Positions 21,863 through 62,480 of a DNA stretch of 64,000 nt are shown piece by piece. The number at the start of each line of letters is the position of its first letter. Position 1 is the first letter of the stretch. The DNA comes from an uncultured virus (IMG/VR IMGVR_UViG_3300042350_002513) (taxonomy: Duplodnaviria; Heunggongvirae; Uroviricota; Caudoviricetes). The stretch is from the IMG/VR virus record IMGVR_UViG_3300042350_002513, one strand, 5' to 3'. Below the pieces are notes generated by a model. That model worked only from the letters and a program-made list of their open reading frames with translations, did not search any database and was not told where the DNA came from. Position numbers and translations under genes: made by a program.

Positions 21863-24800
21863 TTATTTGTATAGTGGTATAAATACTGTATCTCCGGGAT
21901 TGGCCGCGCCAGTTTGAATTGGCATCCATCCAACAAATGTTTTACCAGCCGTACCTCCTGCTGCTCCTACAAGTTGAGCAGTTTCAACTCTAAGAACTGG
22001 AGCAGTACCATCGCCTTTAATATGAAGCCTTGCTGCGGCTGGATTAGTTAAACCAATTCCAACGTTACCATTAGTTTCTAATGAGTGATAAGTGCTTGCT
22101 CCAGCGCCCAAAAGGAGTTTTCCATTGTCTGTCCTAATTGTAGAGTTTCCTAATCCGCCGTCTGTTGATCTATTAGAAGAATTAGTGAACATCACCAATC
22201 CATTAAGGTTACTATTTCTACGGAATACTAACGCAGCAAAAGCATTTGATCCTGTATTAGCATTTCTAACGGCAGAAATATTCCCTCCGTTTACATCATC
22301 ATAAACATCAAACTTTGTATCAGGAACTGTAGTTCCAACACCAACGTAACCATTGCTTGCGTCAATGCGCATTCTTTCTGATGTACCATTAGCATAGAAT
22401 CTTAAGTGAGCCGCAGTTGTACCATTGCTGTTATAATTAATGAACATACCATCTGTATTGACCGTAGATTCATTTCTAAGAACTCTTATGTTTGCGTATA
22501 TATCGTTAGCGCTAGAGGCAGTGTTTAATACCGCGACTGTTCCAAATCTTAGAATGTTTGCAGAAGCAATGCTAACATCACCACCAGAGACTTGCAATCT
22601 ATAAGCTGGATTTGTTAAACCAATACCAACATTGCCTAAATTATTAATTCTAACTCTTTCTACGTTAGGAAGATCAAATGGAGAAGTATGCAATGCAAGA
22701 CCGACTTTTCTATTATAACCTGCTCCTGCTCCACCAGCGCCGATGTCTTCTTCTGAAACAGCATATATACAAGCAGATTTTTCAAGAGCATTTGGCGCAT
22801 CAACGCTGCCGCCACCCATCTTTATACCCCATTTTGCATTATTATTTGAATTAGACGCTGGAACAGCGTTAAATGGAGCAGTTAATATTAAGAAGTCATT
22901 AACCAAATTAGCATTCATTAACGCACTGGTGCTAATTGAACCTAATTGTATTCTTGAACCTGTAGGAGTAGTTTCTACAACATGTAATCTACTGGTGGGA
23001 GTAGTTATATTTATACCAAAATTTCCACCATTTTTTAATGTAACTTGTTGAGAACCAGATCCAGCAGCACCAAATATTAGATCTCCGCCATTTGTATGGA
23101 GACGAACGTCATTTGAACCAGCCTCTCTTCTCATTCCATGAGACGAACCTCCAACGAAAAATCCTCCTGCTACCGCATTACTATTAGCATCAGATACCAC
23201 GAATCCTCTAACATCTAATTTTTGAGCAGCGGCTGTCGCGCCTATGCCTACGTTGCCATTTGTAACAGCTAAATATGTATTATAGTTTGTGCTTACAGTT
23301 CCATCACCATAAACAACCATTGAAGTAAGATTATTAGAGCTTCCTCTAAAAGATGTTGATCCACCATTAGTAGAGGATATAATGTTAGAACCGCCATCTA
23401 AATAATTCAAATGAGTGAAAAAAGAAGAACTTGATGCGATACGAATCTCACCGTTAACTTGTAATTTAGAAGCTGGATTAGTTGTGCCAATACCTAAATT
23501 TCCCTCAACGATTAATCCATTCGCAGGAGCAGCGACATTATAAGTATTTGAACCTATACTTGCGTTACCAATAACAGATAATTTATTAATAGGATTATTT
23601 GTGCCAATTCCTACTTCGTTATTTTTTACTACTAAGTCGCCGCTGCCATATTGACCCATTACTATTCTATCGTCTGCGAATACTTCAAGCACTGGTAAAC
23701 CAGCAGAGTTATTAACGGACATCAAAGAGTCGCTCAAATCATCTACAACACTAAACAACGTACCATTTGTTCCATCCGCTCTAAATACAGTATCATTTGA
23801 AACAGAAGAAACGACATGAAGTTTACCACTAGGCAATGTCGTACCTATTCCAAGATTTCCTGCGGTAGTAGTATTAATAGATCTAATATAATCTAATCGT
23901 GCTACCGCTTCAGACTCAGAAGTATCTCTTGTAAACCAAGTTAGCCAATTGCTCCCTGCTTTATTTAAGAATCTAATATTACTATAGTGATAAAGAATAT
24001 CGCGTAATTCTAGAGATCCAACTATTTGGAAATTGCCATCTGTTTTTAAAATATTTTCACCAATACGGTAAAGATTCACTTCAGTGTCTCCACCAAATGT
24101 TATACCACTAGCTGCCGTTGTAGAACCTAAACCACCAACAGATAATAAAGTAGTTGGGGTATTTGTACCAATACCGACTCTACCATTTTGTTTAATACGC
24201 ATGGTTTCGGGGCGGTTATAAAGATTTTCATTTACATAATTATTTTGAAATATATGATCTTGATAAGCACCATATATCATACTATCTGAACCTACAGCCG
24301 CTCCTGCATTTCCAAATGCGACATATCCACCAACATTATTATCTAAGAAAACTAAACCTGCATATGTTCCATTATCAGCAGAATTTCTGAATGTTATGTA
24401 ATTACTTGCATTAGAATCAAGTAACACATTTGTTCCTGCTGGAGTAGTGCCGATTCCCGCTGGAATAGAAGCGCGGACATTCAATAGCGCAGTAGGAGTA
24501 GTTGAACCTATACCGACAAATGATCCATCAATAACCATCCTTGTAGTACCACTTGTACCAAAAGAAAGAGGTTGGTTATTTAAAGTTTGTAATTTAACTT
24601 GATAGCTAGTTCCATCTCTTACAGCAGAAAATTCTCCCAAAGCAACCCCTAATTCACTCAATTTAAAACCTACTTTATTATTAGCAGAAACTCCATTGCT
24701 TCTAATATTAGCTAATATATTTTCGCCGCTATTTAAGTTAACTTGGAATTTGTCTCCGGGATTTGTTATACCTATACCAACATTACCATTACCAACTGGT

Positions 24801-27800
24801 ACAACACAAACATCATTTCCACCATAATTTAAATAAAGAGGTACACTTCCTTGGCTTTGAACTTCGGCTGCTGTCGCATTAGTGCCTAATGCTAAAGTAG
24901 TTGTCCCATTAGTTATTTTTTCTTGAAAGACTGAACCTAATGTTCCCGGACCGCTTACATTAAGTAAAGATGAAGCATTTGTTACTCCTATTCCAACATT
25001 GCCACCCATCAATGCCAACTTTTGTGTATCAATTCTTAGACGGGTAGTATTGATTATAAAAATATTTCTATTACTGAAATCAAAACAGACTATATTGCTT
25101 CCATTCCAAGCCCAACCAGTAATATTTGGCGGGAAAGTAGTTATAGTAGCAAGCGGAGTTCCATCTAATCCTACTTTATAAATATTTGCACCATTTTGTG
25201 TTGCCCATAAATAAGAACCATCATAAGTAATAGCTTGCGCAGATATAGTCCCCGCCGCCCCTACATACGTTGAAACTAAATCAATAGAAGAGCCATTCCA
25301 TTTATAAATATACAATGTTCCAGAATAAATTAAATATAAATGACCATCTGCATATTCAACATCGTAAGTAGCATTAATAGCAAGAGTCGCTGATTCCGCA
25401 ATTATTGTAGCTGTTTGAGTTGTAGTGTCTAAATCATAACCTACTATTTTACTTGCGGAACCTGTATAAACTACGCACCATAAATATCTACCATCCCAAG
25501 CAGCACCATGAGGAGCGCCATATCCAGATGGAAGAGGTAATGTTACGAAATAATAACCATAAGCATTAGTTATTTGAACAAAATTATTATCATAAAAATA
25601 CGCACGATAATTCGCTTGATCAGTAAAAATATAATGCTTGCCAGTCCAAACAATGCCTCTAAATTGAGTATTTGCGACAAGCTTACCAGTATCATAATAA
25701 GTTATGCCTGAATCAGTAGCGTCTGCGCCAAAAGAACTAATACCCGGATAAGAAGTGGTATAAGAAGCTGTTTTGTGAGAGAGGATATTAGAACTAGGTC
25801 TAATCGTACCAACTACGTCTAATTTTGCCCCCGGAGCAGTAGTTCCTATTCCAACATTATTGTCATAACCTACTGACATCATTACAGTAGCGGCAACATT
25901 AGCTACTCTATTTATAGCAAAATCAATTCTTGTATCTGTGTTGCTATTCCAATAAGGAGTAATTTGAGCGCGATAACCAGTGCCAGTATCGAATCTTAAT
26001 TGAATACCTTTGCCTTGAGTAGAAGCTATATCTAAATTAAAAAGAGCATTTTGTAAATTTCCTACTCCAAGATAACCACCATTTGTAAGTACAAGGACAT
26101 TGTTAGCATTTACATTTCCATTATAAGCTATATTTAAAAAGTTAGTATCAAGACCAACAGAATAAAAAACACCACCATTTCTTTGAAGTCTTACTACTTC
26201 AGAAAAAGCTCCCTGAGCATTATTAATATGCAAACCTCCAGAAGGAATAGTGGTGCCAATTCCTACGTTAGCACCATTTGGATTTAATAAAAGTGGATAA
26301 TTAAAATTTAATGCAGTTTCATCTGTTGATTGAATCCAAGCACCATTTCCTGCTGCTCTAATGCCAAAATCTAGGACAGCGTTGTCTGTAGTATTGCTTA
26401 TTCTGAAAATTCCACTTTGAGTTGCGGCAATAGAAGCAGGATTACCAACAGTTCCATCGATTTGGAATTTTTGAACTGGGAAAGCTGTACCAATTCCTAC
26501 TCTCCCCGCTTCATTTGTAAATATCTGTTTTGTATTTGCGGAAGTGGCGATTTGATAAGTGTAAGGTTGAACCCAGAAATTTGATAATGATACCGCACTA
26601 GGAGAAGGGCCATTTACTGTTACTGTAATAGTATTAGCAAGACCAGTACCGAGACCATTATTTACAGCACCATTAGTTTTTAAAACTAAAGATACGCCTC
26701 CAAAACCAGTAACAGGATTATCAGATAAAACTAATAATGTGACATCATCAGGGCTGCAACCATAAACAGCAAATTCTTGCAATTTTGCAGAACACCATAT
26801 TTCATTTGGCCTATAAGATATATTAGAACTAACTAGAAATGATCCCGCCCAACTAATATTTCCACCATTTACTAAAACTTTGACTGTTTGAGATGTATAA
26901 CTAGAATTTCCTAATATTATAGAGTATTGGCCCCAGTTAGCAGCAGCAGTCTTAGTGACTGAAGAATAATAAGCAGAGTTAGAATTATAAATTAATCCTG
27001 CGACGTTAAGAGATCCATCTGTTTTAATGGTATCTTCGGCGGCGCGATAAAGATTTGCTTGAGCATCATTGCCAAATGTAATACCGCTTGCAGCAGTCGT
27101 TGAACCCGCTCCACCAATTGCGAGAAGAGAAAGAGGGGTTACTCCACCAATTGAAACTTGAGAGTTATTTAAAACTTTTAATGAACTTTTCCAGTTAGCG
27201 TGAGAAACTGCTCCTCCAATATAAGATCCAACATCTACTAGTGGAGTAGTCGTGCCACTATAATCACCTACTAATCTTAAACCAGCAGTAGACTGATCCA
27301 TTCCAATACCAGCCCATCCACTATATGTACTTAAAATTAAAGGATTATTAGCTACAGTATTACCAAAAGAAAGAGCAATCGCCGCAGTTGTTCCTGAGAT
27401 AGATAATTTAGATTGAGGATTTGTACTTCCTATTCCAATAAATCCATTATTCTTAATAAATAAACCATCATAAGTGCCTTTAAATCTACTATCTGTTACT
27501 GGAAATTCATATCTGTTGAAGCCAAGAAGACCAGCAACAGTTGCGCCTGTACCTGTCGCAGTAGTTTCTGTTAATACAGTGTTTGCCTTTATTCTCGCAA
27601 AAACCGCCATTGCGGCACAAGCACCACCCAAGGATCTAAAACGCAAATCAACAGCACCGCCAGTAGTAGCTAATCTAGCATCAACAACCACACCATTAGG
27701 CTCACCTGCATAATGAGCTTGAGTTCTACTTGGTAATTGAACCCAATCTGTTGTCGCTCCAGTATAAAAATTAGCAATCAACTCAAACATTGAGTATTCA

Positions 27801-29296
27801 ATTGTGCCGCAATCATGATGAAATATTTCAATAGTAGCTCTAATAGAATTAGCAGAAGCAGCTAAAGCTCCAATTTCTGTAAAACTACCTGCTGCGGCGG
27901 CGACACTTCTTGCTATAGCTATTACATGCTCGTCTGCATTAGTATCATTTAAATTCCAATACAAACTTCCTTTTACATGCAGCCTTTTAGTTGGGTTAGT
28001 TGTATTTATTCCAAAATTACCATTTGATCCAATATAAGCACTTTCGTTGCTAGTATTTGTCCTAAAATACATCGCAGAATTTGCCGCTAATATCATGTTT
28101 CCATTACTTGACGCTTTCGTAGCTATGCCAAATGAACCACCATCTCTACCTCCAACTATTTGGTTACTACCAATTGTTCCTAATTGAACTTCGTCACCAT
28201 TGGTTCCAGTTACATGTAGTTTAAAAGCAGGATTTGTTAAGCCTATACCAACATTCCCACCGCTTGCAATATAAACAGTAGCACTTCCTAAAATGTCTGT
28301 AAATTGAATACCATTTGCTCTACCATATAATTGGCCAATAAAATTATTCGTTTGATCATTAAATAATGCAATACCATAACCACCAGCAGGTCCAATTTGA
28401 CCAACGCCAGTAACCCTCAAAGACCCAGCGACTTCTAATTTCGCTGAAGGATTATTTGTACCTATGCCAACATTACCATTAGTAGTAGAGAATATAGGAG
28501 CAACAAGCATTGAGTCTCCTCTAGACAAATACTGACCCCTTACTTCGCCATAATCTAAACCTTTGCCTTTATATATTTTAACTTCATCTATTATTCCATA
28601 GAAGAATTGGCCGACGGCGTGAGCGGATCTACCAATGTATCCCGCTGAAGCCACTTGAATGTTTGAACTATTTGCAACAGAAGATATTCTTGTTCCGTTA
28701 GAGTATACATTTAAAACAGAACTAACTCTTGTTACGACAATATGATACCAAACATTAGCTGCCCAAACTATAGCAGGAGCAGTTATTAAAGAATTTTGGA
28801 CATATACCTCTATAGTATTAAGATTAGCTTGAGGTCTAATTAGTATACCTGCTGTATACAGGCCAATTTCTATTAAGGTATTATTGAAGCCAGCAAAGCT
28901 ACTATTGGGTCTACACCAAAGTGAAACAGCAAAATCTCCAGTTCCAAAATCAAAATCAGTACTATCAGGCACAACTACATAATTAGCATTGCCTCCAAAA
29001 CCATCTAAAGCTGTACCTCTTATAGCAGTCGTCGTATAAGTTAAGCCAACAGAAGATGTATTATTTCTTCCTGTTTTATCTGATATTAATAATCCTGACC
29101 CTTCGTCAAATCCATAATAAGCCACTAACCCGTGATCGCTTGGAGCTGTTATTGTAGAATCGTTTGCTATTCTATAAAAAGACGAGCCGTCTATATTAAC
29201 ATTTCCAACGACATCTAGTTTAGCTCCGGGAGCCGTTGAGCCTATGCCTACGTTATTTTCATTTGTTTGAATTGCGGGAATTGTTTTATTAGCCAT
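21863..29296 (-). CDS. Giant tail-fibre-like protein, 2477 aa
   Basis: Many GNVGIGTTNP..KL.V repeats, an N-terminal LamG domain and a (W/Y)DG.YLW beta-propeller-like segment. Confidence 0.8.
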   Translation of the reverse strand: MANKTIPAIQTNENNVGIGSTAPGAKLDVVGNVNIDGSSFYRIANDSTITAPSDHGLVAYYGFDEGSGLLISDKTGRNNTSSVGLTYTTTAIRGTALDGFGGNANYVVVPDSTDFDFGTGDFAVSLWCRPNSSFAGFNNTLIEIGLYTAGILIRPQANLNTIEVYVQNSLITAPAIVWAANVWYHIVVTRVSSVLNVYSNGTRISSVANSSNIQVASAGYIGRSAHAVGQFFYGIIDEVKIYKGKGLDYGEVRGQYLSRGDSMLVAPIFSTTNGNVGIGTNNPSAKLEVAGSLRVTGVGQIGPAGGYGIALFNDQTNNFIGQLYGRANGIQFTDILGSATVYIASGGNVGIGLTNPAFKLHVTGTNGDEVQLGTIGSNQIVGGRDGGSFGIATKASSNGNMILAANSAMYFRTNTSNESAYIGSNGNFGINTTNPTKRLHVKGSLYWNLNDTNADEHVIAIARSVAAAAGSFTEIGALAASANSIRATIEIFHHDCGTIEYSMFELIANFYTGATTDWVQLPSRTQAHYAGEPNGVVVDARLATTGGAVDLRFRSLGGACAAMAVFARIKANTVLTETTATGTGATVAGLLGFNRYEFPVTDSRFKGTYDGLFIKNNGFIGIGSTNPQSKLSISGTTAAIALSFGNTVANNPLILSTYSGWAGIGMDQSTAGLRLVGDYSGTTTPLVDVGSYIGGAVSHANWKSSLKVLNNSQVSIGGVTPLSLLAIGGAGSTTAASGITFGNDAQANLYRAAEDTIKTDGSLNVAGLIYNSNSAYYSSVTKTAAANWGQYSIILGNSSYTSQTVKVLVNGGNISWAGSFLVSSNISYRPNEIWCSAKLQEFAVYGCSPDDVTLLVLSDNPVTGFGGVSLVLKTNGAVNNGLGTGLANTITVTVNGPSPSAVSLSNFWVQPYTYQIATSANTKQIFTNEAGRVGIGTAFPVQKFQIDGTVGNPASIAATQSGIFRISNTTDNAVLDFGIRAAGNGAWIQSTDETALNFNYPLLLNPNGANVGIGTTIPSGGLHINNAQGAFSEVVRLQRNGGVFYSVGLDTNFLNIAYNGNVNANNVLVLTNGGYLGVGNLQNALFNLDIASTQGKGIQLRFDTGTGYRAQITPYWNSNTDTRIDFAINRVANVAATVMMSVGYDNNVGIGTTAPGAKLDVVGTIRPSSNILSHKTASYTTSYPGISSFGADATDSGITYYDTGKLVANTQFRGIVWTGKHYIFTDQANYRAYFYDNNFVQITNAYGYYFVTLPLPSGYGAPHGAAWDGRYLWCVVYTGSASKIVGYDLDTTTQTATIIAESATLAINATYDVEYADGHLYLIYSGTLYIYKWNGSSIDLVSTYVGAAGTISAQAITYDGSYLWATQNGANIYKVGLDGTPLATITTFPPNITGWAWNGSNIVCFDFSNRNIFIINTTRLRIDTQKLALMGGNVGIGVTNASSLLNVSGPGTLGSVFQEKITNGTTTLALGTNATAAEVQSQGSVPLYLNYGGNDVCVVPVGNGNVGIGITNPGDKFQVNLNSGENILANIRSNGVSANNKVGFKLSELGVALGEFSAVRDGTSYQVKLQTLNNQPLSFGTSGTTRMVIDGSFVGIGSTTPTALLNVRASIPAGIGTTPAGTNVLLDSNASNYITFRNSADNGTYAGLVFLDNNVGGYVAFGNAGAAVGSDSMIYGAYQDHIFQNNYVNENLYNRPETMRIKQNGRVGIGTNTPTTLLSVGGLGSTTAASGITFGGDTEVNLYRIGENILKTDGNFQIVGSLELRDILYHYSNIRFLNKAGSNWLTWFTRDTSESEAVARLDYIRSINTTTAGNLGIGTTLPSGKLHVVSSVSNDTVFRADGTNGTLFSVVDDLSDSLMSVNNSAGLPVLEVFADDRIVMGQYGSGDLVVKNNEVGIGTNNPINKLSVIGNASIGSNTYNVAAPANGLIVEGNLGIGTTNPASKLQVNGEIRIASSSSFFTHLNYLDGGSNIISSTNGGSTSFRGSSNNLTSMVVYGDGTVSTNYNTYLAVTNGNVGIGATAAAQKLDVRGFVVSDANSNAVAGGFFVGGSSHGMRREAGSNDVRLHTNGGDLIFGAAGSGSQQVTLKNGGNFGINITTPTSRLHVVETTPTGSRIQLGSISTSALMNANLVNDFLILTAPFNAVPASNSNNNAKWGIKMGGGSVDAPNALEKSACIYAVSEEDIGAGGAGAGYNRKVGLALHTSPFDLPNVERVRINNLGNVGIGLTNPAYRLQVSGGDVSIASANILRFGTVAVLNTASSANDIYANIRVLRNESTVNTDGMFINYNSNGTTAAHLRFYANGTSERMRIDASNGYVGVGTTVPDTKFDVYDDVNGGNISAVRNANTGSNAFAALVFRRNSNLNGLVMFTNSSNRSTDGGLGNSTIRTDNGKLLLGAGASTYHSLETNGNVGIGLTNPAAARLHIKGDGTAPVLRVETAQLVGAAGGTAGKTFVGWMPIQTGAANPGDTVFIPLYK

Positions 29297-29300
29297 ATTA

Positions 29301-32300
29301 TTATGTTACTGATGCTTGTTGTCCCATTACATGATATGTAATTAGAGATGAATTTGTTGAAGAAGTTGCAGAAATTAATTTTAATTGTATTAAAAAGTTT
29401 TGAGTACCTGCGGCTGCTGGATCTACTATTTGGATATCTATTTTGTCTCCAGCGGGTCCTCTTGTATTGTCATGAGCAGTTATGATAGTTCCGGGTTCTC
29501 CGTACCCAGCATTATCACCATTCTGAATAAATAGTTCAGATACAAACGCTACTGCGCTATGATTACTCCAGTCTCCAAATGCTCCAATCTTGACATAGCA
29601 AGAATTGTGAGCCAACATATTAACTGTCAATACAGTAGTCCAAGAAGCAGTGCTTAATGTCACTGTCTTTTGACCATATATGTGACCATTTAAACTGGTA
29701 GTACCTGCTACTACTAGATTTCCATCTGTTTTTATTGTATCTTCGGCAGATCTATATAAATTTGCTTGAGCATCGCCTCCAAAAGTTAATCCGCTTGCTG
29801 CTGATGTAGAGCCGGGACCACCAACTGATAATAATGTAGTTGGACTTACTGTTCCTATTCCGACACTGCCAGCAAAATAAGCAGAGCCATTTGTTAATGA
29901 AATATAAGACTGTAATGTGCTGGTTCCTCCGCCAATGAAACCAATTGAATTTGCAGGAAGATTTGATACAGCCGAGTCAATTTGACGATGATAAATTCCC
30001 CAGTTGCTTGATGTATCAGCGGAATCCAAATAAATCCAAGAATCTCTGTCATTTGCTTGAGAATATAAAAATACATTTGATGCTGGATTAACGGTGGTAT
30101 AAGTATTGAGAACTAGGCTATTTATTCCTCTGTATCTTTCTCCCCTTATTGTTCCACTAACGTCTAAAGTATAAATTGGTATTGTTGTAGCTATGCCTAC
30201 ATTTCCATTATTACGGAAATACATTCTGGCACCAACGCCTTCCTGCCAAATGTAAAGGGCAGGACTAGTTGCATCAGTATCTCCGACATTACCAATTCTC
30301 CATTTTCTTACTCCGTTAGTATGTATGAAAAGTCCACCATATCCATTAGAAGAAGCATAATCGACAATAAATCCGGGTTCTATCGCTCCACTTGCAAAAG
30401 ATCTTATCGCTGTTCCGCTAACATCTAATGCCCATGCAGGGCTTGTCGTTCCTATTCCAATTGCGTTAGAAGTTAGTGAGATAGTACCTTTAGGTATAAA
30501 TCCATAAGTAAGGTCTAATCTATTACTAGCATAATAAATTAATCTAGCATTAGAATCACCTCCAACAGAATTTGTAAAGTCAATATAAGCTCCATTTGTT
30601 CCCAACAATTGTAATTGAGCATAATTATCTGCATTATTAAAGCCCATTGAACCCGCTTTATTTAATCCATATCTACTTCCAGCAGAAGAATTATCAGAAA
30701 CTACAAAGGGCCAGTTAGTATCAGAAGTTGAAGCGTTTATTCCTAATGAGCCATTTACATCTAATTTGTAAGATGGATTAGAAGTTCCAATTCCAACTTT
30801 ATTATTAACCAATACAAAATCACCACTTCCATATTGCCCAGCAACAATTCTATCATCAGCAAATACCTCAAGAACTGGGAGACCAGCAGAGTTATTGACC
30901 GACATTAAAGAGTCGCTTAAATCATCAGTGACTGAAAAAAGAGTACCATTGGTTCCATCTGCTCTTAATACGGTTTCTCCAGCAACAGAAGAAACTATAT
31001 GAAGTTTTCCGCTAGGAGTATTGGTGCCAATGCCAACATAACCACCCTTCTTTATCGTAAGAGGATAGCTTTCCCAATTATTACCAGCATTATTGCCAAC
31101 ATTTAAAACTAAATCAGTAGTAAAACTTCCGGGATAAATATTACCATTAGATGTTTGTAAATAAGTTCCCGCAAGTATATACGCACCTGCTACAAAACTG
31201 CCATCTGTTTTAATTTGACTAGTTGATGATCTATAAAGATTCGCAGAAGCATCTCCACCTAAAGTTATACCGCTTGCTGCTGTTGTAGAACCTGCGCCAC
31301 CAACTGACAAAAGAGTAGTTGGAGTATTCGTACCTATTCCTAATTTACCATCAGATGTAATTCTAGCTTTTTCAGTGTTATTTGTATAAATTTGAATGGC
31401 ATGAACACCGATTGTAGATAATACTGTTCCATTATTGTCTGCTCCTATAGCGAATCCTGCATCCGTAGCAAGATCTCTCGTAAACGTAGCAAGAGTAGCA
31501 GATGTATTAAATACATGTAGTGGAGAACTAGGAATTGCTGTACCTATTCCAACTTTGCCATCATAAGTAAATCTAACCGACTCTGTTAAATTGCTATTTC
31601 CAGTAGCTCTTCTGGAAGAGAAAGCTAAATCACCTATACCAAATCCTTGACCATTTAAAAATAAAGATTTAATTGCCCACTGAGGAGTATAAGTATTAGC
31701 ATCATTTAAAGTAGCAAATAAAACTGCGCCACCTTGATTTGAATTATTAAGAGAGCTTCCTACTAGAATTGAACCTCCTTTATTACCACCATCAACTAAA
31801 TCAGCAGTTGCTTGATTTGCGCCAATTACTGTTAATTGATAATTTGGATTCGTTGTTCCTAAACCAACATAACCATCGCTTTTTAAAACAAGAGAATTTA
31901 CCATATTTGTATTAGTAAATGCTCCCGCTGTTACGTTCATGAACCCAAATATCTTATATCCAACTGCTGGCGCAAATGCTTCAAAATAAGGTCTATAAGC
32001 TTGTGTAGATTCAACGGTTCCTGCTAATTCATTTGTCCAATTTAAATTTTGACCATAAGTATACCAAGGGCTGTTTTGCGAAGAATGATAAGTATGTTCA
32101 GATGTTCTGATGCCTCCATTAAGTCTTGTTATATTTAATCCAACGTTAGTAACCGAGTCGTTACCAATTTGAGCATTTCCTTGTACTTCTAATCTTTGAG
32201 TAGGATTTGTCGTTCCTAAACCGACATTGCCAGCAGTCGTCAAAATATGTTGACTTCCTCCCGCTCCTAAAAGTAAATTACCATAATCAGTTCTTATTGT

Positions 32301-35300
32301 AGAATTACCTGTACCACCGTCAGTGCTTCTAGTAGATGAATTTGTAAATAAAACTATGCCATTATTTCCACCATCTCTGCGCAATACAAATGCTGTATAT
32401 GCGTTTGATCCTGCGTTTAGATTTCTGACATAAGACAATAATGGACCATCTGTATTATCATAAACATCTAATTTACCAATGGTGCTTACTGTTCCAATTC
32501 CAACAGTGCCATCTGATCTAATTCTAACTTTTTCTGAAGAAGCCCCATCTAAAGTCGTATAAAAAGCCAAATAACCATCTTGAGTACTTGCAGTTGAAGT
32601 GAAATTTTGCTCTGCGGCGGCGACTATTCTTGCTCCCAAAATTGCAGTACCTGCCGCAGCAGAATTACCTCCATATCCTAAATTAAAATTAATAGAGGCA
32701 CCATAATTTGTTCCTGTTTGAGTATTTTCAAGAGTTAATAAGTTATAAGCACTATTATCATTTCCTTTTATTAATAATCCAAGAACTGAAGAGAAAGTAG
32801 AATATCTTGCATTAGCGTCTCCTTGAACTACCTGCAATTTTCCAGCAGGATTGGTTGTAGCAATTCCAACATAACCATCAGAATTAATCCTAATTCTTTC
32901 TACATTATTAGTATAGATTTGCCAGTATCCACCACTAGATGGTAAATATCTTATTGCTGTATGAGAATTTGTTGCATCCCAAATAGAAAAAGAATTAGAA
33001 CCATTATTATCTTGATCAACATAAAATGCATATTTTGCATCATTATTTGCTATATCTAAAGCTAGTAATTGATCTTTAGCTCCTTTATTAATAGACAACT
33101 TAGCGGTTGGAGCAGTAGAGTTTATACCGACATTACCGGCAGATGTAATTCTAACTCTTTCTGTTTGTTGAGTATGAAATGTTGTATGATTCCAACTGCT
33201 TAAAATCATTCCGTCAATTACAGAATCATATTTTAGATACTGAGAAGAAATATCATTCGCCCAACTTATAGCAGAGCCGCTTCCAGCGGCCATATAAATA
33301 CTACCATTAACATTTAGTTTTAAAGGAGCAACGCTTGTGCCAATTCCAATATTACCATTAGATAAAATTCTTAAAGCTTCTGTTTGAGTAGCAAAGCCTA
33401 CTCCAAAAGCCATTCCATAAGATGCACCGCTTGGATTAAATTCAATATAAGCTTGATTTGTTACATCTGTACGTTTTTGGATCTTTGTGCTGGCAGTTGT
33501 CCAGTCTCCTCCTGTTGCAAAACGTGTTTCTACTAAATTAATTTGCGAAACATTTCCATTATTAACAGCATAAGTAAATCCAGTAATAGTAGACCCAGCA
33601 GGAATACCGGGTAATGTTCCTGCATTTATATTTAAAGTAGTAACGGTAGTAGTATTAGTGTTAAAATTGCCATTAACTACTAAGCTACCATCTGTTCTTA
33701 TCGTATCTTCGGCTGATCTATATAAATTTGCCTGAGCGTCTCCTCCAAAAGTTAATCCGCTTGCTGCTGAAGTTGATCCAAGTCCGCCAAGAGAAAGAAG
33801 TGTTTGTGGATTTATAGTTCCAATTCCAACTTTGCCATCAGCCTTAAATACAGATATACCACTAGCACCAGCAGAAAGAACAATAGAATTAGGATTAGCT
33901 GAAAGTAAAATCAAATCATCAGAAATGCCTCCGGTGACAGCAGACGCTAACCCGATGCTGGCTTCTGGAGTTTGTGCTTTATAAAATTCAATTTGAGAAC
34001 CTGCATTATTTCCCGTACTTCCTACTAGTCTAACCGTAGCAATGCTTGATACTGTACCGCTATTTATTATATGTAATTTTACGGTAGGATTAGTTGTTCC
34101 TATTCCAACATTTCCGCCGTTTGCTACAGTAACAGCATTAGAATTAGTAGTTCTATTAAAAATAGCAAATCCATTTGTGCCATCTGCACCAGCGGACCAT
34201 AAATTACTTGTACTGCTTTGGAAATCCATCCAAGTACCAGCAGTTGATCCAGAAATGAATATCAATTGGTTGTCGCTTGAAGTGATATGAAGTTTTCTAA
34301 GTGGATTAGTTGTGCCGATACCAACATTACCTACATCAGTTACTGTCATTTTTACTGTTGGATCTGTAAGAACGCCTCTGGTGTATATATCTAAAATTCC
34401 CCCAACACTTCCAGCACTAACCGGCCTATTTCTAAACACAACGTGACTATATAGTCCTAATGCGAGAGATGTTGGATTAGCATCAGTTGCGGCGTCTATT
34501 AAATTCAACGTATGAGTATAAACACTTGTATTAGTTGTAATATCAGCGTTGATAAACATTGCTCTTTGATTTAAACCAAGTGTACCTGCTGAAACATAAA
34601 GTTTAGCATTTGGTGATGTTGTGCCTATACCAATATTACCATTATGGTAAATACGCATTCTTTCGGCATAAGTTTGGTCATTGAGTTGATTTGTATAAAA
34701 TGCTAAACTTGTGCCTCTATTGTAACCCAAAGTATCTTCGCTGACAGCATAAATTGCTGAAGTTTTCCCTAAGCTATTTGAAAGAGAATCGACCGCTCCA
34801 ATAAATTTAATACCCCATTTTGCTCCAATATTAGAAGTTGTCGCTGAATTAACGCCATAAGGAGCATTTAAAATTAATAAATCATTTGTAGAACCCGAAT
34901 TCATCAAAGCACTTTCAGAAGAAGTACCTAATTGAATTCTTGTTCCTGTTGCAGTAGTTTCTACTACATGCAATTTAGAAGTAGGAGAAGTCGTATTTAT
35001 ACCTACATCACCACTACTATCAATATAGACGGCATTGGTTAATCCATTTGTTTGAAAGTATAAATCTGAACCGCCTAATATTAAACTTTGATAAGAGCCA
35101 GCCAAAGTATTGTCTACGCCCTGTATATAAGTGCCAGCAGAGTTGAGATTAAATCTTACTCCTTTAGTTGCGCCTGCCACAGAAAAAGCATATGTACTAT
35201 CAGGACTTACAACATGTAATCTACCATTTGGAGTAACTGTACCTATTCCTACATTTCCTCCAGAAGTTATACTCATTAAAGTACTTCTTCCGCCACCACC

Positions 35301-37358
35301 AACAGAAGTCTGAGTACTAAAATATAAACTTTGACCACTTGCCCAATCAAAATAATTTATTCCATTATTTCTAAACAAAGAAAGTCTAGAGTTATTTCCT
35401 TCGCTAATTAATTCTCCACTTGCTCTTACTGATCCAATTACATCTAATTTATAACCGGGGTTACCTATTCCAATTCCTGCGTTTCCACTAACTAATAAAT
35501 TTGAGGTTATATTGGTAGTGCCATTTATTTTTGAATCACCAAATACTTCAAAAGTATCAGAAGACTGAGAGTGCGCTCCAAATCTTACTAGATTTATGTA
35601 TTGATTAGCAGTGCCTCCCGCTTGTTGTAAGTATAAAGGAATATTTGAGGAGCGATCTACTTTTATGAATCTATGTCTATATTGACCATTTGTATATGTA
35701 TTATGATCGAAAACTAAACCAAAAACTCCAGTAGCATTTGGAAATATATTAGAATCAGGAATTCCTGATTGACTAGTAAATCCCATGTTTCTCAAGTGTA
35801 GTTGACCTGATGGATTAGTTATACCTATTCCAACGAAGCCATTATCATAAATGCTTCCAGTAACTAATTCTTTAGACGTATTCCAACGAGGAACATAATA
35901 TTGCGTTCCAGATCCAGAAAGAAAAGTTTGAATTTCGTAACCACTTAGAGAATTAATCCTAGCGTTAAGAGTTGAACCAGTTGCAGCTAGGTTCGTGTTC
36001 GTAGTGTTGATCTTCGTATCAAGAGTCGAACCAGTGGCAGCTAGGTTAGTGTTCGTAGTGTTAATCTTAGTATCAAGGGTAGAACCAGTAGCAGCTAGGT
36101 TAAGGATCGTCGCAAAGTTCGCGTTGGAATAACCACTCAGAGCATTGATCTTCGTATCAAGGACCGAACCCGTAGCAGCTAGGTTAAGGATCGTTGCAAA
36201 ACTGTTGTTGGAGTACCCACTCAGAGTGTTGATCTTTGCGTCGAGAGTCGAACCAGTTGCAGCAATGTTTCCGCTCAAAGAAGTAATCGTTGGAGAAATT
36301 ATCCCAATAGCGACCTCTAAAGAACCATCGGTTTTAATTCTTGAGCTAGATATCCTATACAGGTTAGCAACAGCATCGCCACCAAAAGTTAAGCCGCTTG
36401 CTGCTAAAGTAGAGCCCGCGCCACCAACTGACAACAGAGTAGTTGGAGAGGCTGTGCCTATACCAACTTTATTATTTATAAGAACAAAATCATTTTGTCC
36501 ATACTGACCCATCACGACTCTATCATCTGCAAATACTTCCAATACTGGTAAACCTGCGGAATTATTCACCGACATCAAAGAGTCACTTAGATCATCATTT
36601 ACAGAAAATAAAATTCCATTTGTACCGTCTGCTCTAAGGACAGTTTCACCAGCAACTGAAGAGACGATATGAAGTTTACCTGTTGGTTGAGTAGTTCCAA
36701 TTCCAACATAAGAACCTCTTCCAATAAATAAACCAGCTTCCCAAGCATTTTGGGCAATATTTCCAACAAATACTGTTAAAGCTCCATAAGGAGCCCCGGC
36801 ATAAATTTGTCCACCAGCAGTTTGTAAATACGAAGCAGCATATACATAAGAAGAAGATGCCAAAGAAGCAGCAGTAAAAGCAGCATCTGTTTTTAACACA
36901 GAATCAGAAAGTCTATATAAATTTACAACGGCGTCTCCACCAAAAGTTATTCCACTTGCCGCAGAAGTGGAACCCGCACCACCAACAGACAAAAGGGTTG
37001 TTGGACTAATAGTACCTATTCCAACATTTGTACCATTATCATATATACTTCCAGTAATTAATAACTTGCTCCCATTCCAACGAGGAACATAATTAGTAAT
37101 ACCATTACCAGATAAAAAAGTATTATTCGCATATCCACTAAGAGAATTTATTCTATTATTTAATAAGGTTCCAGTAGCAGCAATCTGCCCACTTAAAGCA
37201 GCAAGATCAGTATTACTTGAATCTGCTTGCCACATTACGCCAGATGATGTAGACGTTAGAACTTGACCGGGAGTTCCTAAACGACTAGAGTAGTCAAATA
37301 TAAAACCGGATATCTGAATGCCCGTAGCAAATAATTCATCTATAGCAAATTGCGCCAT
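29301..37358 (-). CDS. Giant tail-fibre-like protein, 2685 aa
   Basis: Many GNVGIGT repeats, AATGS coiled-coil-like repeats, and modules shared with the downstream fibre gene. Confidence 0.8.
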   Translation of the reverse strand: MAQFAIDELFATGIQISGFIFDYSSRLGTPGQVLTSTSSGVMWQADSSNTDLAALSGQIAATGTLLNNRINSLSGYANNTFLSGNGITNYVPRWNGSKLLITGSIYDNGTNVGIGTISPTTLLSVGGAGSTSAASGITFGGDAVVNLYRLSDSVLKTDAAFTAASLASSSYVYAASYLQTAGGQIYAGAPYGALTVFVGNIAQNAWEAGLFIGRGSYVGIGTTQPTGKLHIVSSVAGETVLRADGTNGILFSVNDDLSDSLMSVNNSAGLPVLEVFADDRVVMGQYGQNDFVLINNKVGIGTASPTTLLSVGGAGSTLAASGLTFGGDAVANLYRISSSRIKTDGSLEVAIGIISPTITSLSGNIAATGSTLDAKINTLSGYSNNSFATILNLAATGSVLDTKINALSGYSNANFATILNLAATGSTLDTKINTTNTNLAATGSTLDTKINTTNTNLAATGSTLNARINSLSGYEIQTFLSGSGTQYYVPRWNTSKELVTGSIYDNGFVGIGITNPSGQLHLRNMGFTSQSGIPDSNIFPNATGVFGLVFDHNTYTNGQYRHRFIKVDRSSNIPLYLQQAGGTANQYINLVRFGAHSQSSDTFEVFGDSKINGTTNITSNLLVSGNAGIGIGNPGYKLDVIGSVRASGELISEGNNSRLSLFRNNGINYFDWASGQSLYFSTQTSVGGGGRSTLMSITSGGNVGIGTVTPNGRLHVVSPDSTYAFSVAGATKGVRFNLNSAGTYIQGVDNTLAGSYQSLILGGSDLYFQTNGLTNAVYIDSSGDVGINTTSPTSKLHVVETTATGTRIQLGTSSESALMNSGSTNDLLILNAPYGVNSATTSNIGAKWGIKFIGAVDSLSNSLGKTSAIYAVSEDTLGYNRGTSLAFYTNQLNDQTYAERMRIYHNGNIGIGTTSPNAKLYVSAGTLGLNQRAMFINADITTNTSVYTHTLNLIDAATDANPTSLALGLYSHVVFRNRPVSAGSVGGILDIYTRGVLTDPTVKMTVTDVGNVGIGTTNPLRKLHITSSDNQLIFISGSTAGTWMDFQSSTSNLWSAGADGTNGFAIFNRTTNSNAVTVANGGNVGIGTTNPTVKLHIINSGTVSSIATVRLVGSTGNNAGSQIEFYKAQTPEASIGLASAVTGGISDDLILLSANPNSIVLSAGASGISVFKADGKVGIGTINPQTLLSLGGLGSTSAASGLTFGGDAQANLYRSAEDTIRTDGSLVVNGNFNTNTTTVTTLNINAGTLPGIPAGSTITGFTYAVNNGNVSQINLVETRFATGGDWTTASTKIQKRTDVTNQAYIEFNPSGASYGMAFGVGFATQTEALRILSNGNIGIGTSVAPLKLNVNGSIYMAAGSGSAISWANDISSQYLKYDSVIDGMILSSWNHTTFHTQQTERVRITSAGNVGINSTAPTAKLSINKGAKDQLLALDIANNDAKYAFYVDQDNNGSNSFSIWDATNSHTAIRYLPSSGGYWQIYTNNVERIRINSDGYVGIATTNPAGKLQVVQGDANARYSTFSSVLGLLIKGNDNSAYNLLTLENTQTGTNYGASINFNLGYGGNSAAAGTAILGARIVAAAEQNFTSTASTQDGYLAFYTTLDGASSEKVRIRSDGTVGIGTVSTIGKLDVYDNTDGPLLSYVRNLNAGSNAYTAFVLRRDGGNNGIVLFTNSSTRSTDGGTGNSTIRTDYGNLLLGAGGSQHILTTAGNVGLGTTNPTQRLEVQGNAQIGNDSVTNVGLNITRLNGGIRTSEHTYHSSQNSPWYTYGQNLNWTNELAGTVESTQAYRPYFEAFAPAVGYKIFGFMNVTAGAFTNTNMVNSLVLKSDGYVGLGTTNPNYQLTVIGANQATADLVDGGNKGGSILVGSSLNNSNQGGAVLFATLNDANTYTPQWAIKSLFLNGQGFGIGDLAFSSRRATGNSNLTESVRFTYDGKVGIGTAIPSSPLHVFNTSATLATFTRDLATDAGFAIGADNNGTVLSTIGVHAIQIYTNNTEKARITSDGKLGIGTNTPTTLLSVGGAGSTTAASGITLGGDASANLYRSSTSQIKTDGSFVAGAYILAGTYLQTSNGNIYPGSFTTDLVLNVGNNAGNNWESYPLTIKKGGYVGIGTNTPSGKLHIVSSVAGETVLRADGTNGTLFSVTDDLSDSLMSVNNSAGLPVLEVFADDRIVAGQYGSGDFVLVNNKVGIGTSNPSYKLDVNGSLGINASTSDTNWPFVVSDNSSAGSRYGLNKAGSMGFNNADNYAQLQLLGTNGAYIDFTNSVGGDSNARLIYYASNRLDLTYGFIPKGTISLTSNAIGIGTTSPAWALDVSGTAIRSFASGAIEPGFIVDYASSNGYGGLFIHTNGVRKWRIGNVGDTDATSPALYIWQEGVGARMYFRNNGNVGIATTIPIYTLDVSGTIRGERYRGINSLVLNTYTTVNPASNVFLYSQANDRDSWIYLDSADTSSNWGIYHRQIDSAVSNLPANSIGFIGGGTSTLQSYISLTNGSAYFAGSVGIGTVSPTTLLSVGGPGSTSAASGLTFGGDAQANLYRSAEDTIKTDGNLVVAGTTSLNGHIYGQKTVTLSTASWTTVLTVNMLAHNSCYVKIGAFGDWSNHSAVAFVSELFIQNGDNAGYGEPGTIITAHDNTRGPAGDKIDIQIVDPAAAGTQNFLIQLKLISATSSTNSSLITYHVMGQQASVT
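35936..36280 (-). repeat. Intragenic tandem repeat, five copies of LAATGSTLDTKIN-like unit
   Basis: Visible in both translation and DNA. Confidence 0.85.
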
Positions 37359-57485: not shown

Positions 57486-57526
57486 GATAGTTTCTGAAAT
57501 CGGGCACCCCAGATCCAAAAACTATG
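57486..57526. repeat. 41-bp boundary element, copy 5
   Basis: GATAGTTTC TGAAATC GGGCACCCC AGATCCA AAAACTATG. Confidence 0.95.
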
Positions 57527-58643: not shown

Positions 58644-58671
58644 AAAAACTCACCCCGCTTCGGCGGGGCTT

Positions 58672-58712
58672 CATAGTTTCCAGAACGGGGCACCCCAGAC
58701 GCAAAAACTATC
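58672..58712. repeat. 41-bp boundary element, copy 7
   Basis: CATAGTTTC CAGAACG GGGCACCCC AGACGCA AAAACTATC. Confidence 0.95.
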
Positions 58713-58789
58713 CCCTTCGCTCCCGCGAAGAAAAAGATTTTTGGTTTTTTATTTGACTCTTTCGGGCCAAAGTTTAATCTGTAGGGGTC

Positions 58790-58990
58790 ATGAGCAAAAC
58801 GATTGAATTTTACAACCGCGAAGTCTACGGCAACCTGCGCGAGTACGTTGCCAACGAAGGTGACGCAAACATCATTTACCGCTTGACGGGAAAGAAAACC
58901 ATCACTAGTGTGGAGCGCGAGTTGATTCGTGACCTCTCCGGTGGTCTGATTCATTTCAAACAAATTTTGCCCCCTTCGAAGTCGAAGTGA
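58790..58990 (+). CDS. Hypothetical protein
   Basis: 66 aa with VYG....Y.......I..LTGKKT motif; promoter TTGACT-N16-TAATCT at 58753-58780. Confidence 0.8.
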   Translation: MSKTIEFYNREVYGNLREYVANEGDANIIYRLTGKKTITSVERELIRDLSGGLIHFKQILPPSKSK

Positions 58991-59006
58991 GGGTGGGTTA
59001 AGGCAC

Positions 59007-59184
59007 AAGCGGCATGGTACGCAGGGAGACCCTGCGGCGGGTTAGTTGAACCTTTAGAAACACCGCTTTTTAGATTGGGTTCGCGTCAAATGGTACGCAG
59101 GGAGATCCTGCGGCAGGGTTTTTTCTAAGAGAATAAGACTTGTTCTCTTTTGGGTTTTGACCCTCATGAAACAGACGCGAATCC
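59007..59184 (+). ncRNA. Tandem pair of putative structured RNA elements
   Basis: Two copies of stem-AUGGUA-hairpin-GC-hairpin-NNNGAAACA-stem, with different but complementary outer stems. Confidence 0.6.
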
Positions 59185-59188
59185 TTTC

Positions 59189-59229
59189 GATAGTTTCGGG
59201 CAATGGGCACCCCCAACAAAAAAACTATG
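59189..59229. repeat. 41-bp boundary element, copy 8
   Basis: GATAGTTTC GGGCAAT GGGCACCCC CAACAAA AAAACTATG. Confidence 0.95.
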
Positions 59230-59246
59230 AAAAACGATTTTTCTTT

Positions 59247-59275
59247 TTGACAATCAACGCCGATTCCATTAACTT
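59247..59275 (+). promoter_or_regulatory. sigma70-type promoter (leaderless)
   Basis: TTGACA-N17-TAACTT, ATG 7 nt downstream. Confidence 0.8.
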
Positions 59276-59282
59276 GTCCCCG

Positions 59283-59588
59283 ATGAAATTAATGACGAAA
59301 CAACTCACTGAAAAACTCAAAAAGGCCGGTTCTGACGGCATGGTCCCCATTTGTAAGCTTTTCACCCCGTGGGGTGCCGTTACTTGGTTGATCACTGGGA
59401 TCGAAGGTGGCATCCTTTACGGGTTCGCTGACTTGGGCATGGGTTGCGTTGAATGGGGCGGGATCGCTTCCGTGGAAGAATTGGAAGCAATCAAGGGACC
59501 GCTTGGAATGACCATTGAGCGTGACTTGTACTGGCAACCCAAGGAAGGCGTGAATTACTTTGAACTTGAAACCCTCGCGGCTGTTTAA
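59283..59588 (+). CDS. DUF2958-like protein
   Basis: KLFTPWG..TW.I......L.G..DLG.G..E.G..S..EL....G..G..IERDLYW. Confidence 0.8.
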   Translation: MKLMTKQLTEKLKKAGSDGMVPICKLFTPWGAVTWLITGIEGGILYGFADLGMGCVEWGGIASVEELEAIKGPLGMTIERDLYWQPKEGVNYFELETLAAV

Positions 59589-61422: not shown

Positions 61423-61463
61423 CATAGTTTCTGGAATCGGGCACCCCGAAGGAAAAAACTATC
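61423..61463. repeat. 41-bp boundary element, copy 10
   Basis: CATAGTTTC TGGAATC GGGCACCCC GAAGGAA AAAACTATC. Confidence 0.95.
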
Positions 61464-62439: not shown

Positions 62440-62480
62440 TATAGTTTCCAGATCCGGGCACCCCGAATCCAAAAACTATG
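62440..62480. repeat. 41-bp boundary element, copy 11
   Basis: TATAGTTTC CAGATCC GGGCACCCC GAATCCA AAAACTATG. Confidence 0.95.

What the first reader, a model, noticed from the sequence alone, without database searches (positions are those of the whole stretch)
59007..59184. Tandem three-way-junction RNA motif with covarying stems
Copy A (59007-59068): AAGCGG-C-AUGGUA-CGCAGGG aga CCCUGCG-GC-GGGUU aguug AACCU-UUAGAAACA-CCGCUU. Copy B (59077-59184): GGGUUCGCGUC-AA-AUGGUA-CGCAGGG aga UCCUGCG-GC-AGGGUU...(extended AAGAGAAUAAG/CUUGUUCUCUU hairpin)...GACCCU-CAUGAAACA-GACGCGAAUCC. The outer stems differ entirely but both pair, G-U pairs favour the plus strand, and the junction nucleotides are conserved. 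The pair occupies the 3' end of the 58790 cassette where other cassettes have a simple terminator. It has GUA and GAAAC like a hammerhead but lacks CUGANGA. I do not recognise it: candidate new ribozyme, aptamer or protein-sponging RNA.
Basis: partly seen in the sequence, partly recalled or inferred. Interest (0 to 1): 0.72.

Follow-up and report, generated by a model that had tools for sequence, protein, structure and literature searches.

The report
New widespread phage three-way-junction RNA
The two look-alike stretches are genuine copies of a small folded RNA, absent from the RNA family catalogue, that hundreds of uncultured phages carry once per genome, usually right after a gene's stop codon, and whose job is still unknown.

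Summary
Seven bacterial genomes from several phyla also carry it.

On 90 distinct sequences, 16 of 19 base pairs show compensatory changes. G-U outnumbers A-C 59 to 9, so the + strand folds. No Rfam 15 family matches. No paper holds the core sequence, and no cultured phage carries it.

There is one locus per genome, single or tandem. It reads in the sense of its neighbours, and in 73 of 88 contexts the upstream stop codon lies within 30 bases. In one phage lineage it is written in frame into the disordered linker of a glycosyltransferase.

Function is unresolved. My best guess (0.33) is a self-folding module on the 3' flank of a cistron, read by a conserved host factor. A gene-specific riboswitch or a ribozyme is less likely.

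The parts
59007..59068 (+). Copy A of the three-way-junction RNA. P1 is 59007-12 with 59063-68. Junction strand C-AUGGUA is 59013-19. P2 is 59020-26 with 59030-36, loop AGA. GC is 59037-38. P3 is 59039-43 with 59049-53. Junction strand UUAGAAACA is 59054-62. P1 is followed by UUU.
   Evidence: covariance model R1 48.6 bits, E 2e-10
59077..59184 (+). Copy B. P1 is 59077-87 with 59174-84, 11 pairs including G-U. AA-AUGGUA is 59088-95. P2 is 59096-102 with 59106-112. GC is 59113-14. P3 is 59115-20 with 59159-64, with an inserted hairpin at about 59127-59149. CAUGAAACA is 59165-73.
   Evidence: R1 60.1 bits, E 1e-13
58790..58990 (+). Upstream 66-codon ORF with no family match. Its stop codon lies 16 bases before copy A, so the tandem RNA forms its 3' flank.
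59190..59228 (+). Separate repeated 'box' hairpin (TAGTTTC...GGGCACCCC...AAAAACTA) that follows copy B. It is one of five in the window and is not part of the motif.
59247..59275 (+). Promoter-like TTGACA, 17 bases, TAACTT in front of the next cassette. It fell below the scan's threshold and was read from the sequence.
   Evidence: reading; one search did not list it
59283..59588 (+). Downstream gene for a DUF2958 protein, with its own promoter-like site. It is probably not controlled by the motif.
   Evidence: PF11171, E 4e-22

Best explanation
SHOWN. Both copies belong to a large, previously uncatalogued family of about 70-110-base RNAs that fold on the plus (sense) strand into a three-way junction.
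- The closing helix P1 is free to vary.
- The hairpin P2 has a fixed length: 7 pairs, plus two more beyond a bulged purine. It is capped by an invariant G-A-G-A-N loop.
- The arm P3 varies in length and begins with NGG/CCN.
- There are two conserved junction strands: (A/G)UGGUA on the 5' side and YNUGAA(A/U)CA on the 3' side.
- Uncultured phages and a few prophage-like regions of bacteria from several phyla carry it at one locus per genome, as a single or a tandem copy.
- It always reads in the sense of the neighbouring genes and usually starts within 30 bases of the upstream gene's stop codon.

INFERRED. The RNA is made as part of the phage message and folds on its own into a compact shape. 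I infer that the GAGA-type loop and the A-rich junction strand make tertiary contacts. It then acts in cis as a 3'-flank module of the upstream cistron. It would mark, process or protect that end of the transcript through a host RNA-handling factor that is conserved across bacterial phyla. The motif-bearing phages share no protein of their own.

In this window the tandem pair takes the place that a plain hairpin holds in the neighbouring cassette. Copy A's closing helix runs into a U-run, like a terminator.
For: Family and fold:
- The exact 25-mer occurs in 72 viral contigs. GAAACA follows in every one, although it was not part of the search pattern.
- On A2 (29 sequences), 95.1% of cells are paired against 81.2% when shuffled. 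11 pairs have changes on both sides, and 0 of 500 shuffles reach that.
- On A5 (90 distinct rows), 95.7% are paired against 72.9%. 16 of 19 pairs have changes on both sides, and versions slid by 1-3 columns drop to 36-51% paired.

Strand: G-U 59 against A-C 9, leaving out two near-invariant positions. The nearest long ORFs lie in the same sense on both sides in 56 of 72 loci.

Copy number:
- One locus in each of three near-complete phage genomes, and tandem copies in two other records.
- One per genome in 5 of 5 bacterial genomes.
- 2 of 101 genomes in one order.

Position: the upstream stop codon lies within 30 bases of P1 in 73 of 88 contexts, and within 10 bases in 54. A canonical terminator follows the motif in L055 and L083, and a U-run follows P1 in window copy A, L037 and the primase-type loci.

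No phage partner: no protein is shared by the four motif-bearing phages at BLASTP 1e-4.

In RNA libraries: contigs from river metatranscriptomes of separate studies cover 58961-59195 and 58987-59195.
Against: - No 3' end, cleavage site or bound factor was observed. The RNA data are assembled contigs, which cannot show ends, strand or level, and which may contain DNA.
- A plain stabiliser or terminator would not need near-invariant junction nucleotides across phyla.
- In 9 of the 72 loci, and throughout that protein family, the motif lies inside a translated frame. Ribosomes would unfold it there, and no transcript end is expected.
- In many loci a start codon follows P1 by only about 10 bases, which would equally fit a 5' leader role.
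- The counts come from related phages and are not independent events.
- Alignment A5 was fitted to the model, which favours the model's structure.
Confidence: 0.33

Rival explanations
1. Decoy or sponge. The RNA is a high-affinity binding site that holds back a conserved host protein or a widespread anti-phage defence protein. The tandem copies would bind a dimer or raise the capacity.
For: The invariant loop and junction nucleotides, together with a P2 of fixed length, suit recognition by a protein. There is no common neighbouring gene and no shared phage protein. Tandem copies recur in several lineages. In this window the motif lies in an early region of small genes.
Against: One or two sites per genome is few for a sponge. 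CsrA-type GGA is not conserved: column 30 is A in 20 of 90 sequences, which gives GAGAGA. No partner was identified. Being translated in some phages would disturb binding.
Confidence: 0.15
2. Ligand-binding aptamer. The RNA is a riboswitch-like attenuator: a small molecule stabilises P1, which then acts as the stem of a terminator or alters coupling to the next gene. The tandem copies would sharpen or widen the response.
For: The compact three-way junction with invariant junction bases and free peripheral stems is typical of aptamers. Tandem pairs come in two flavours, A...A against G...U at columns 18 and 111, 75 and 13 of 90. A U-run follows P1 in several contexts. Glycosyltransferase genes of three different folds are neighbours or hosts.
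Against: There is no recognisable expression platform. Downstream genes are unrelated: primase-polymerase, HNH, radical SAM, PAPS reductase, helicase, integrase and small ORFs. The motif sits closer to the upstream stop codon than to the downstream start. It lies in frame inside an ORF in one lineage. In this window the next gene has its own promoter-like site.
Confidence: 0.14
3. A new class of self-cleaving ribozyme that cuts the polycistronic message at gene boundaries.
For: It shares several traits with small ribozymes in phages: a three-way junction with a conserved core, scattered placement without gene association, and occasional tandem copies. GUA and GAAAC recall the hammerhead.
Against: The hammerhead core CUGANGA is absent, and no ribozyme family scores even at E up to 10. 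The motif is kept in frame inside a conserved coding sequence, whose message it would destroy. RNA-library contigs run uninterrupted through both copies, though contigs can hide cleavage.
Confidence: 0.08
4. An element that works as single-stranded DNA. It would be a priming or initiation signal on the lagging-strand template, comparable to G4-type or RSF1010 ssi sites, or part of an origin.
For: There is one locus per genome. It is often next to primase-polymerase, helicase, RusA or RecT genes. It can lie inside an ORF's linker, as the lambda origin does (recalled). Folding that is specific to one strand would also fit ssDNA.
Against: G-U-type pairs are frequent: 26 of 90 at one P3 pair and 80 of 90 at the top of P2. 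A GAGA-type loop with an A-rich junction strand is the style of RNA tertiary structure (inference). In G002 the motif sits by tail-fibre genes, not replication genes. In this window it lies among small early genes.
Confidence: 0.08
5. A nascent-RNA processive antiterminator, working like HK022 put or nut/boxB. It would modify RNA polymerase so that downstream genes are read.
For: There are one or two sites per genome, at the edge of early or replication modules. The G-A-N-A-N pentaloop hairpin recalls boxB, and the 3' junction strand loosely recalls boxA (both recalled). Factors conserved across bacteria could explain the conservation.
Against: put is two stem-loops just downstream of the early promoters, and only ten sequences were aligned in that paper (passages of PMC9378689). 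The motif is translated in some phages, which should disable such an element. In this window it lies at the end of a cassette, before a new promoter-like site.
Confidence: 0.06

Closest known systems
Hammerhead ribozyme (type III topology)
   Same: Three helices around a junction, a GUA just before one hairpin, GAAAC on the strand that returns to the closing helix, and occurrence in phages.
   Different: There is no CUGANGA strand. The P2-P3 joint has 0-2 bases instead of 7, and the 3' junction strand has 9-11 bases instead of 3-4. No Rfam hammerhead model scores even at E up to 10.
Flavivirus exonuclease-resistant RNAs (xrRNA1/xrRNA2), recalled
   Same: Compact three-way junctions with conserved junction bases. 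They are placed just after a stop codon, often as a tandem pair, and act without a virus-encoded partner.
   Different: No sequence likeness, and no ring-forming pseudoknot was found or tested. The bacterial nucleases differ. Some family members sit before a start codon or inside an ORF.
Lambda/P22 boxB and HK022 put antiterminator RNAs (boxB recalled; put from passages of PMC9378689)
   Same: Phage sense-strand RNA elements, one or two per genome. boxB has a hairpin capped by a GNRA-like pentaloop.
   Different: Those are single or double stem-loops in untranslated leaders right after early promoters. This motif is a three-way junction placed against an upstream stop codon, and it is sometimes translated.
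RNase III processing signals of T7-type phages (recalled)
   Same: Structured punctuation between cistrons of a long phage message.
   Different: T7 has about ten per genome, they are conserved only among close relatives, and they are not branched. Here there is one locus per genome, with a core kept across phages of different bacterial phyla.
Three-way-junction riboswitch aptamers (purine class; tandem glycine aptamers), recalled
   Same: Free stems around an invariant junction, tandem arrangement, and variants that differ at single junction bases.
   Different: There is no expression platform, no common regulated gene class, no Rfam match, and the motif occurs in frame inside a coding sequence.

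Membership tests
Hammerhead ribozyme | Conserved CUGANGA strand between stems I and II | tested here: not met
   No CUGA occurs anywhere in 59007-59184. The P2-P3 joint is only (G/U/A)C.
Hammerhead ribozyme | Score at or above the gathering threshold of an Rfam hammerhead model | tested here: not met
   No hit at the gathering threshold, at E up to 10 over 58900-59300, or at E up to 1 on eight diverse members.
Hammerhead ribozyme | Self-cleavage after the UH site | not testable with these tools
   This needs an in-vitro assay. RNA-library contigs run through both copies, but contigs cannot show cleavage.
Any Rfam 15 family | Significant covariance-model match | tested here: not met
   Searches gave 0 relevant matches. 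The four weak hits lie outside the motif or are 13 bases long.
Riboswitch | Conserved aptamer with covarying stems | tested here: met
Riboswitch | Placement in the leader of one functional class of genes | tested here: not met
   Downstream genes are unrelated. The motif lies closer to the upstream stop codon. In 9 of 72 loci it is inside an ORF.
Riboswitch | Expression platform (alternative terminator or masking of the ribosome site) | tested here: inconclusive
   A U-run follows P1 in some contexts and not in others. No alternative pairing was identified.
Intrinsic terminator | GC-rich stem directly followed by a U-tract | tested here: inconclusive
   Copy A's P1 runs into UUUUU, and L037 and the primase-type loci have U-runs. 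L055 and L083 have a separate canonical terminator instead, and the in-ORF members have none. The scan tool does not score branched stems.
HK022 put RNA | Two adjacent stem-loops of about 70 bases just downstream of the early promoters | tested here: not met
   The motif is a three-way junction at the 3' end of a cistron. The put description comes from passages of PMC9378689.
CsrA/RsmA-binding sponge RNA | GGA in hairpin loops, in many copies | tested here: not met
   Column 30 is A in 20 of 90 sequences, giving GAGAGA. There are only one or two hairpins per locus.
Exonuclease-resistant RNA (flavivirus type) | Ring-forming pseudoknot around the 5' end that halts a 5'-3' exonuclease | not testable with these tools
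   No conserved loop-to-flank complementarity was seen by eye. This needs a nuclease challenge assay.

The most novel reading that the evidence does not exclude
The motif is a new class of autonomously folding functional RNA: either a ligand-binding aptamer or a catalytic or nuclease-blocking fold. Environmental phages of many bacterial phyla would use it as a portable module. Its function would be strong enough for one lineage to keep it for a long time inside the coding sequence of a glycosyltransferase, with protein and RNA constraints superimposed.
Probability: 0.22. Interest if true: 0.88.

Novelty: categorically new. Interest (0 to 1): 0.74.

Why it matters
Few RNA motifs keep about 25 nearly invariant bases across phages of different bacterial phyla while their stems covary freely. 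That pattern has in the past marked riboswitches, ribozymes and binding sites for core cellular machinery.

This motif is abundant in lake, river and soil viromes and absent from cultured phages and from Rfam. It is also small enough (62-85 bases) for direct biochemical and structural work.

The family further provides a rare natural case of a structured RNA and a protein linker encoded in the same bases. That case can be used to study how the two constraints are reconciled.

Even if its role turns out to be transcript punctuation, it would point to a host factor that very different phages rely on.

Tried and rejected
- Rfam at the gathering threshold and at lax thresholds gave nothing relevant.
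- A full-text search for the core sequence, written as RNA and as DNA, found 0 papers.
- The supplements of Fremin et al. 2023 (PMC10690425) gave 0 hits in the 6 files that could be searched. Files 1, 2 and 4 were not searched, so the motif may still be among their 10,000 unnamed candidates. I saw only the listing and abstract of that paper.
- Cultured phages: a 641-base query found no match. An 81-base family member gave only chance-level hits, with E of at least 0.7 and at most 42% coverage.
- One search used a mistyped pattern that was one N short. Its 2 hits are meaningless. One search is the corrected scan.
- Of the 31 pattern hits in bacterial genomes, 24 look like chance matches in coding sequence. 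L080 scores 25 bits but its P2 does not pair. I count only L074, L081, L083, L085, L087, L092 and L094.
- An extra helix AUG/YNU next to the junction is compatible with the data (A-U or G-U in 88 of 90, G-C or G-U in 85 of 90). Its middle pair is mismatched in 71 of 90 and no pair changes on both sides, so I do not claim it.
- A sarcin-ricin-type GUA/GAA pairing of the two junction strands was considered. It was dropped because G-C to A-U covariation supports extending P2 through the G and U of GGUA.
- A small ORF starting at the junction AUG or between tandem copies was rejected: the frames differ between loci.
- Dam-site and CsrA-site readings of the loop were rejected: GATC and GGA are both lost in variants.
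- A host core gene used as an attachment site was rejected: only 2 of 101 genomes in one order have the motif.
- Insertion of the motif into the glycosyltransferase as a recent mobile element was rejected: the whole 300-350-residue protein family carries diverged versions. Only distant homologues that match the N-domain alone gave no significant model match in the DNA held.
- The T7-type RNA polymerase search found nothing, but its control also failed to respond, so it says nothing.
- The RNA-library contigs cannot show ends, strand or abundance. Both contigs stop at 59195, but one carries a loose end there, so the stop is not evidence of a 3' end.
- Look-ups in the scan's own notes by sequence and by place found nothing on this motif.

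Full report
**What is in the window.** The window is part of an uncultured tailed phage. It encodes a large terminase subunit, PhoH, a sigma-like protein and giant Laminin_G_3 proteins on the minus strand up to about 53.8 kb. A plus-strand region of small genes follows. Its nearest cultured relatives share only 24% identity in the terminase.

The finding lies in the small-gene region. It sits directly after a 66-codon ORF (58790-58990) and before a repeated box hairpin and the promoter-like site of a DUF2958 gene.

RNAfold returns the drawn three-way junction for both copies. Copy A has z = -2.05, with 8 of 200 shuffles folding as well. Copy B has z = -5.02, with 0 of 200. The reverse complements fold about as well, so energy does not decide the strand.

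The shared 16-mer occurs twice in the window against 0.13 expected.

**It is a family.** The 25-base core, from AUGGUA through P2 to GC, occurs exactly in 72 IMG/VR contigs. In every instance a variable hairpin follows, then NNNGAAACA, then a strand complementary to the bases in front of the core. None of this was part of the search pattern (54 distinct sequences).

A covariance model built from 29 of these sequences found 95 sites in the 72 loci plus the window. These include diverged second copies that the pattern had missed.

The exact core reached the same limit in metagenome contigs.

In one-genome-per-species bacterial contigs the pattern matched 31 places. I accept 7 of them as real: Polyangiales (two), Acidoferrales, Chthoniobacteraceae, Verrucomicrobiia, a Burkholderiales MAG and a gammaproteobacterial contig. 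The rest look like chance matches in coding sequence.

**Covariation and strand.** The two alignments gave these pair counts.

| Measure | A2, MAFFT | A5, model-fitted |
|---|---|---|
| Distinct sequences | 29 | 90 |
| Cells paired, observed | 95.1% | 95.7% |
| Cells paired, shuffled | 81.2% | 72.9% |
| Pairs changed on both sides | 11 | 16 of 19 |

On A2, 0 of 500 shuffles reach 11 such pairs.

On A5 the 16 pairs comprise all seven of P1, six of P2 and three of P3. Structures slid by 1-3 columns fall to 36-51% paired. Because A5 was fitted to the model, it leans towards the model's structure.

P2 variants seen include CGCAAGG/UCUUGCG, CGCAGAG/UUCUGCG, CGCAUGG/UCAUGCG, CGUAGAG/UUCUACG, CGCGGGG/UCCCGCG and UGCAGGG/UCCUGCA.

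G-U pairs outnumber A-C 59 to 9 once two near-invariant positions are set aside, and 207 to 9 with them. The plus strand is therefore the folded one.

Invariant or nearly invariant bases are UGGU(A), the loop GAGA, the C after P2, the GG/CC at the base of P3, and UGAA(A/U)CA.

Two further pairs extend P2 beyond a bulged purine. In the glycosyltransferase lineage the outer pair changes from G-C to A-U.

**Not a known family.** Rfam 15 gives nothing at the gathering threshold for the window. It gives nothing over the motif at E up to 10, and nothing at E up to 1 on eight diverse members.

The hammerhead core is absent. No paper in the library holds the core sequence. The searchable supplements of the large phage structured-RNA survey do not hold it either, although three files could not be searched.

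No record among 50,697 cultured-phage genomes carries it.

**Where it sits.** Three near-complete phage genomes have one copy each. Two other records have a tandem pair.

Five bacterial genomes have one copy each. Only 2 of 101 genomes in one order have any. It therefore travels with mobile DNA and is not a host core gene.

The nearest long ORFs on both sides are in the motif's sense in 56 of 72 loci. Most exceptions come from small-gene regions such as this window, where the longest ORF is probably spurious.

In 73 of 88 distinct contexts with a recognisable upstream ORF, its stop codon is within 30 bases of P1. In 54 it is within 10 bases.

Distances to the next start codon vary from about 10 to more than 200 bases.

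Neighbouring genes are diverse:
- GT9-like and other glycosyltransferases
- primase-polymerase
- a primase-like protein
- RusA and RecT
- HNH and CoiA-like nucleases
- radical SAM and PAPS reductase
- a helicase
- integrases

No protein is shared by the four motif-bearing phages compared.

**The in-frame case.** In 9 of the 72 loci the motif lies inside a 316-343-residue ORF. The model of this protein shows three parts:
- a confident GT-A glycosyltransferase domain (Foldseek E down to 7e-7 against mannosylglycerate synthase and collagen glycosyltransferases)
- a disordered stretch at residues 228-250, which is exactly the part encoded by the motif
- a helical, basic C-terminal part

Of 120 homologues listed, 20 carry the identical peptide. 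Most others carry variants. In the 34 distinct DNA loci examined, these variants correspond to covarying P2 stems, altered junction strands (for example CUAGAG with UUUGAACA) and a long covarying P1.

The model still scores the nearer variants at 35-60 bits, but the deepest ones only weakly or not at all. Distant homologues that match the N-domain alone gave no significant model match in the DNA held.

The RNA has therefore lived inside this gene for a long time while being translated.

**Expression.** Contigs from river metatranscriptome libraries of separate studies cover 58805-59064, 58872-59124, 58961-59195 and 58987-59195. These are assemblies. They show presence in RNA libraries, but not ends, strand or level.

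**What it most likely does.** The shown facts are:
- a strand-specific, deeply conserved fold
- one locus per genome
- no shared phage protein
- no common regulated gene
- placement against an upstream stop codon
- occasional canonical terminators or U-runs just behind it
- tolerance of being translated

I read these as a self-folding module on the 3' flank of a cistron. It would work in cis through a host RNA-handling factor conserved across phyla. In this window it stands where the neighbouring cassette has a plain hairpin.

This reading is inference, and I give it about one chance in three.

The near-invariant junction would fit a decoy, an aptamer or a nuclease-blocking fold as well. The in-frame members weigh most heavily against a ribozyme and against a nascent-RNA antiterminator. 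The frequent G-U pairs and the GAGA-type loop weigh against an element that works as single-stranded DNA.

**Relation to earlier notes of this scan.** Word searches returned notes on other uncatalogued phage three-way-junction RNAs. Sequence and place look-ups found no note that shares sequence with this motif. I cannot say whether any of those notes describes the same family.

Noticed in passing
window 57488-57510, 58674-58696, 59191-59213, 61425-61447, 62442-62464 (+): There are five copies of a second repeated element, TAGTTTC-N-GGGCACCCC, against 0 expected. By reading, the 58674 and 59191 copies are closed by ...AAAAACTA into a long hairpin that holds an inner GGGG-CA-CCCC hairpin, and each lies just upstream of a TTGAC(A/T)-N17-TAAYYT promoter-like site. 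It may be a cassette-boundary signal or a regulator site of this phage.
   Followed up: partly
L001, L005, L019, L027, L028, L063, L070 and L239-L280 (viral contigs of about 40-47 kb): A GT-A glycosyltransferase has its disordered inter-domain linker encoded by the RNA motif. In the complete 42.5 kb genome the gene lies near collagen-repeat and LtfC-like tail-fibre genes. A related phage has a 2OG-Fe(II) oxygenase and two more glycosyltransferases nearby. This hints at glycosylated, collagen-like fibres.
   Followed up: partly
L012, L023, L031, L041-L043, L049, L058, L062, L065, L072 and many of L119-L198: Tandem pairs have a fixed order of two flavours. The upstream copy has GUGGUA...UGAAUCAG and the downstream copy has AUGGUA...UGAAACAA. 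The two junction positions change together (A,A in 75; G,U in 13 of 90), possibly through one inherited event.
   Followed up: partly
L009 versus L025/L026/L017/L053 (after the first copy): Where a second copy and a free-standing HNH or CoiA-like nuclease gene are present, they begin right after the remnant UUGAUUUAUGAAC. In single-copy phages that sequence is the start of the primase-like gene. It looks as if a nuclease cassette carrying its own motif copy had been inserted at that start codon.
   Followed up: no
family members upstream of primase-like genes (for example L011, L016, L022, L038): The P3 loop of one subfamily keeps CCUCC (or CCUUC) followed by GUGUGU. This is a conserved loop sequence with no partner that I could find.
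   Followed up: no
L328 and L354 (one 88,493-base metagenome contig): Two exact core matches lie 46.7 kb apart on one contig. This is probably a concatemer assembly of a genome of about 46.7 kb rather than two loci.
   Followed up: no
window 2-7165, 21863-29296, 29301-37358 (-): Three giant ORFs of 2388 (open-ended), 2477 and 2685 codons. The 2477-codon ORF and two smaller neighbours carry Laminin_G_3 domains. All have no other family match.
   Followed up: no
window 58652-58669 and 58711-58734: The GC hairpins of the neighbouring cassette score as terminators on the minus strand only, because the T-run lies on that side. They may therefore work in both directions or stop antisense transcription into the small-gene region.
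   Followed up: no
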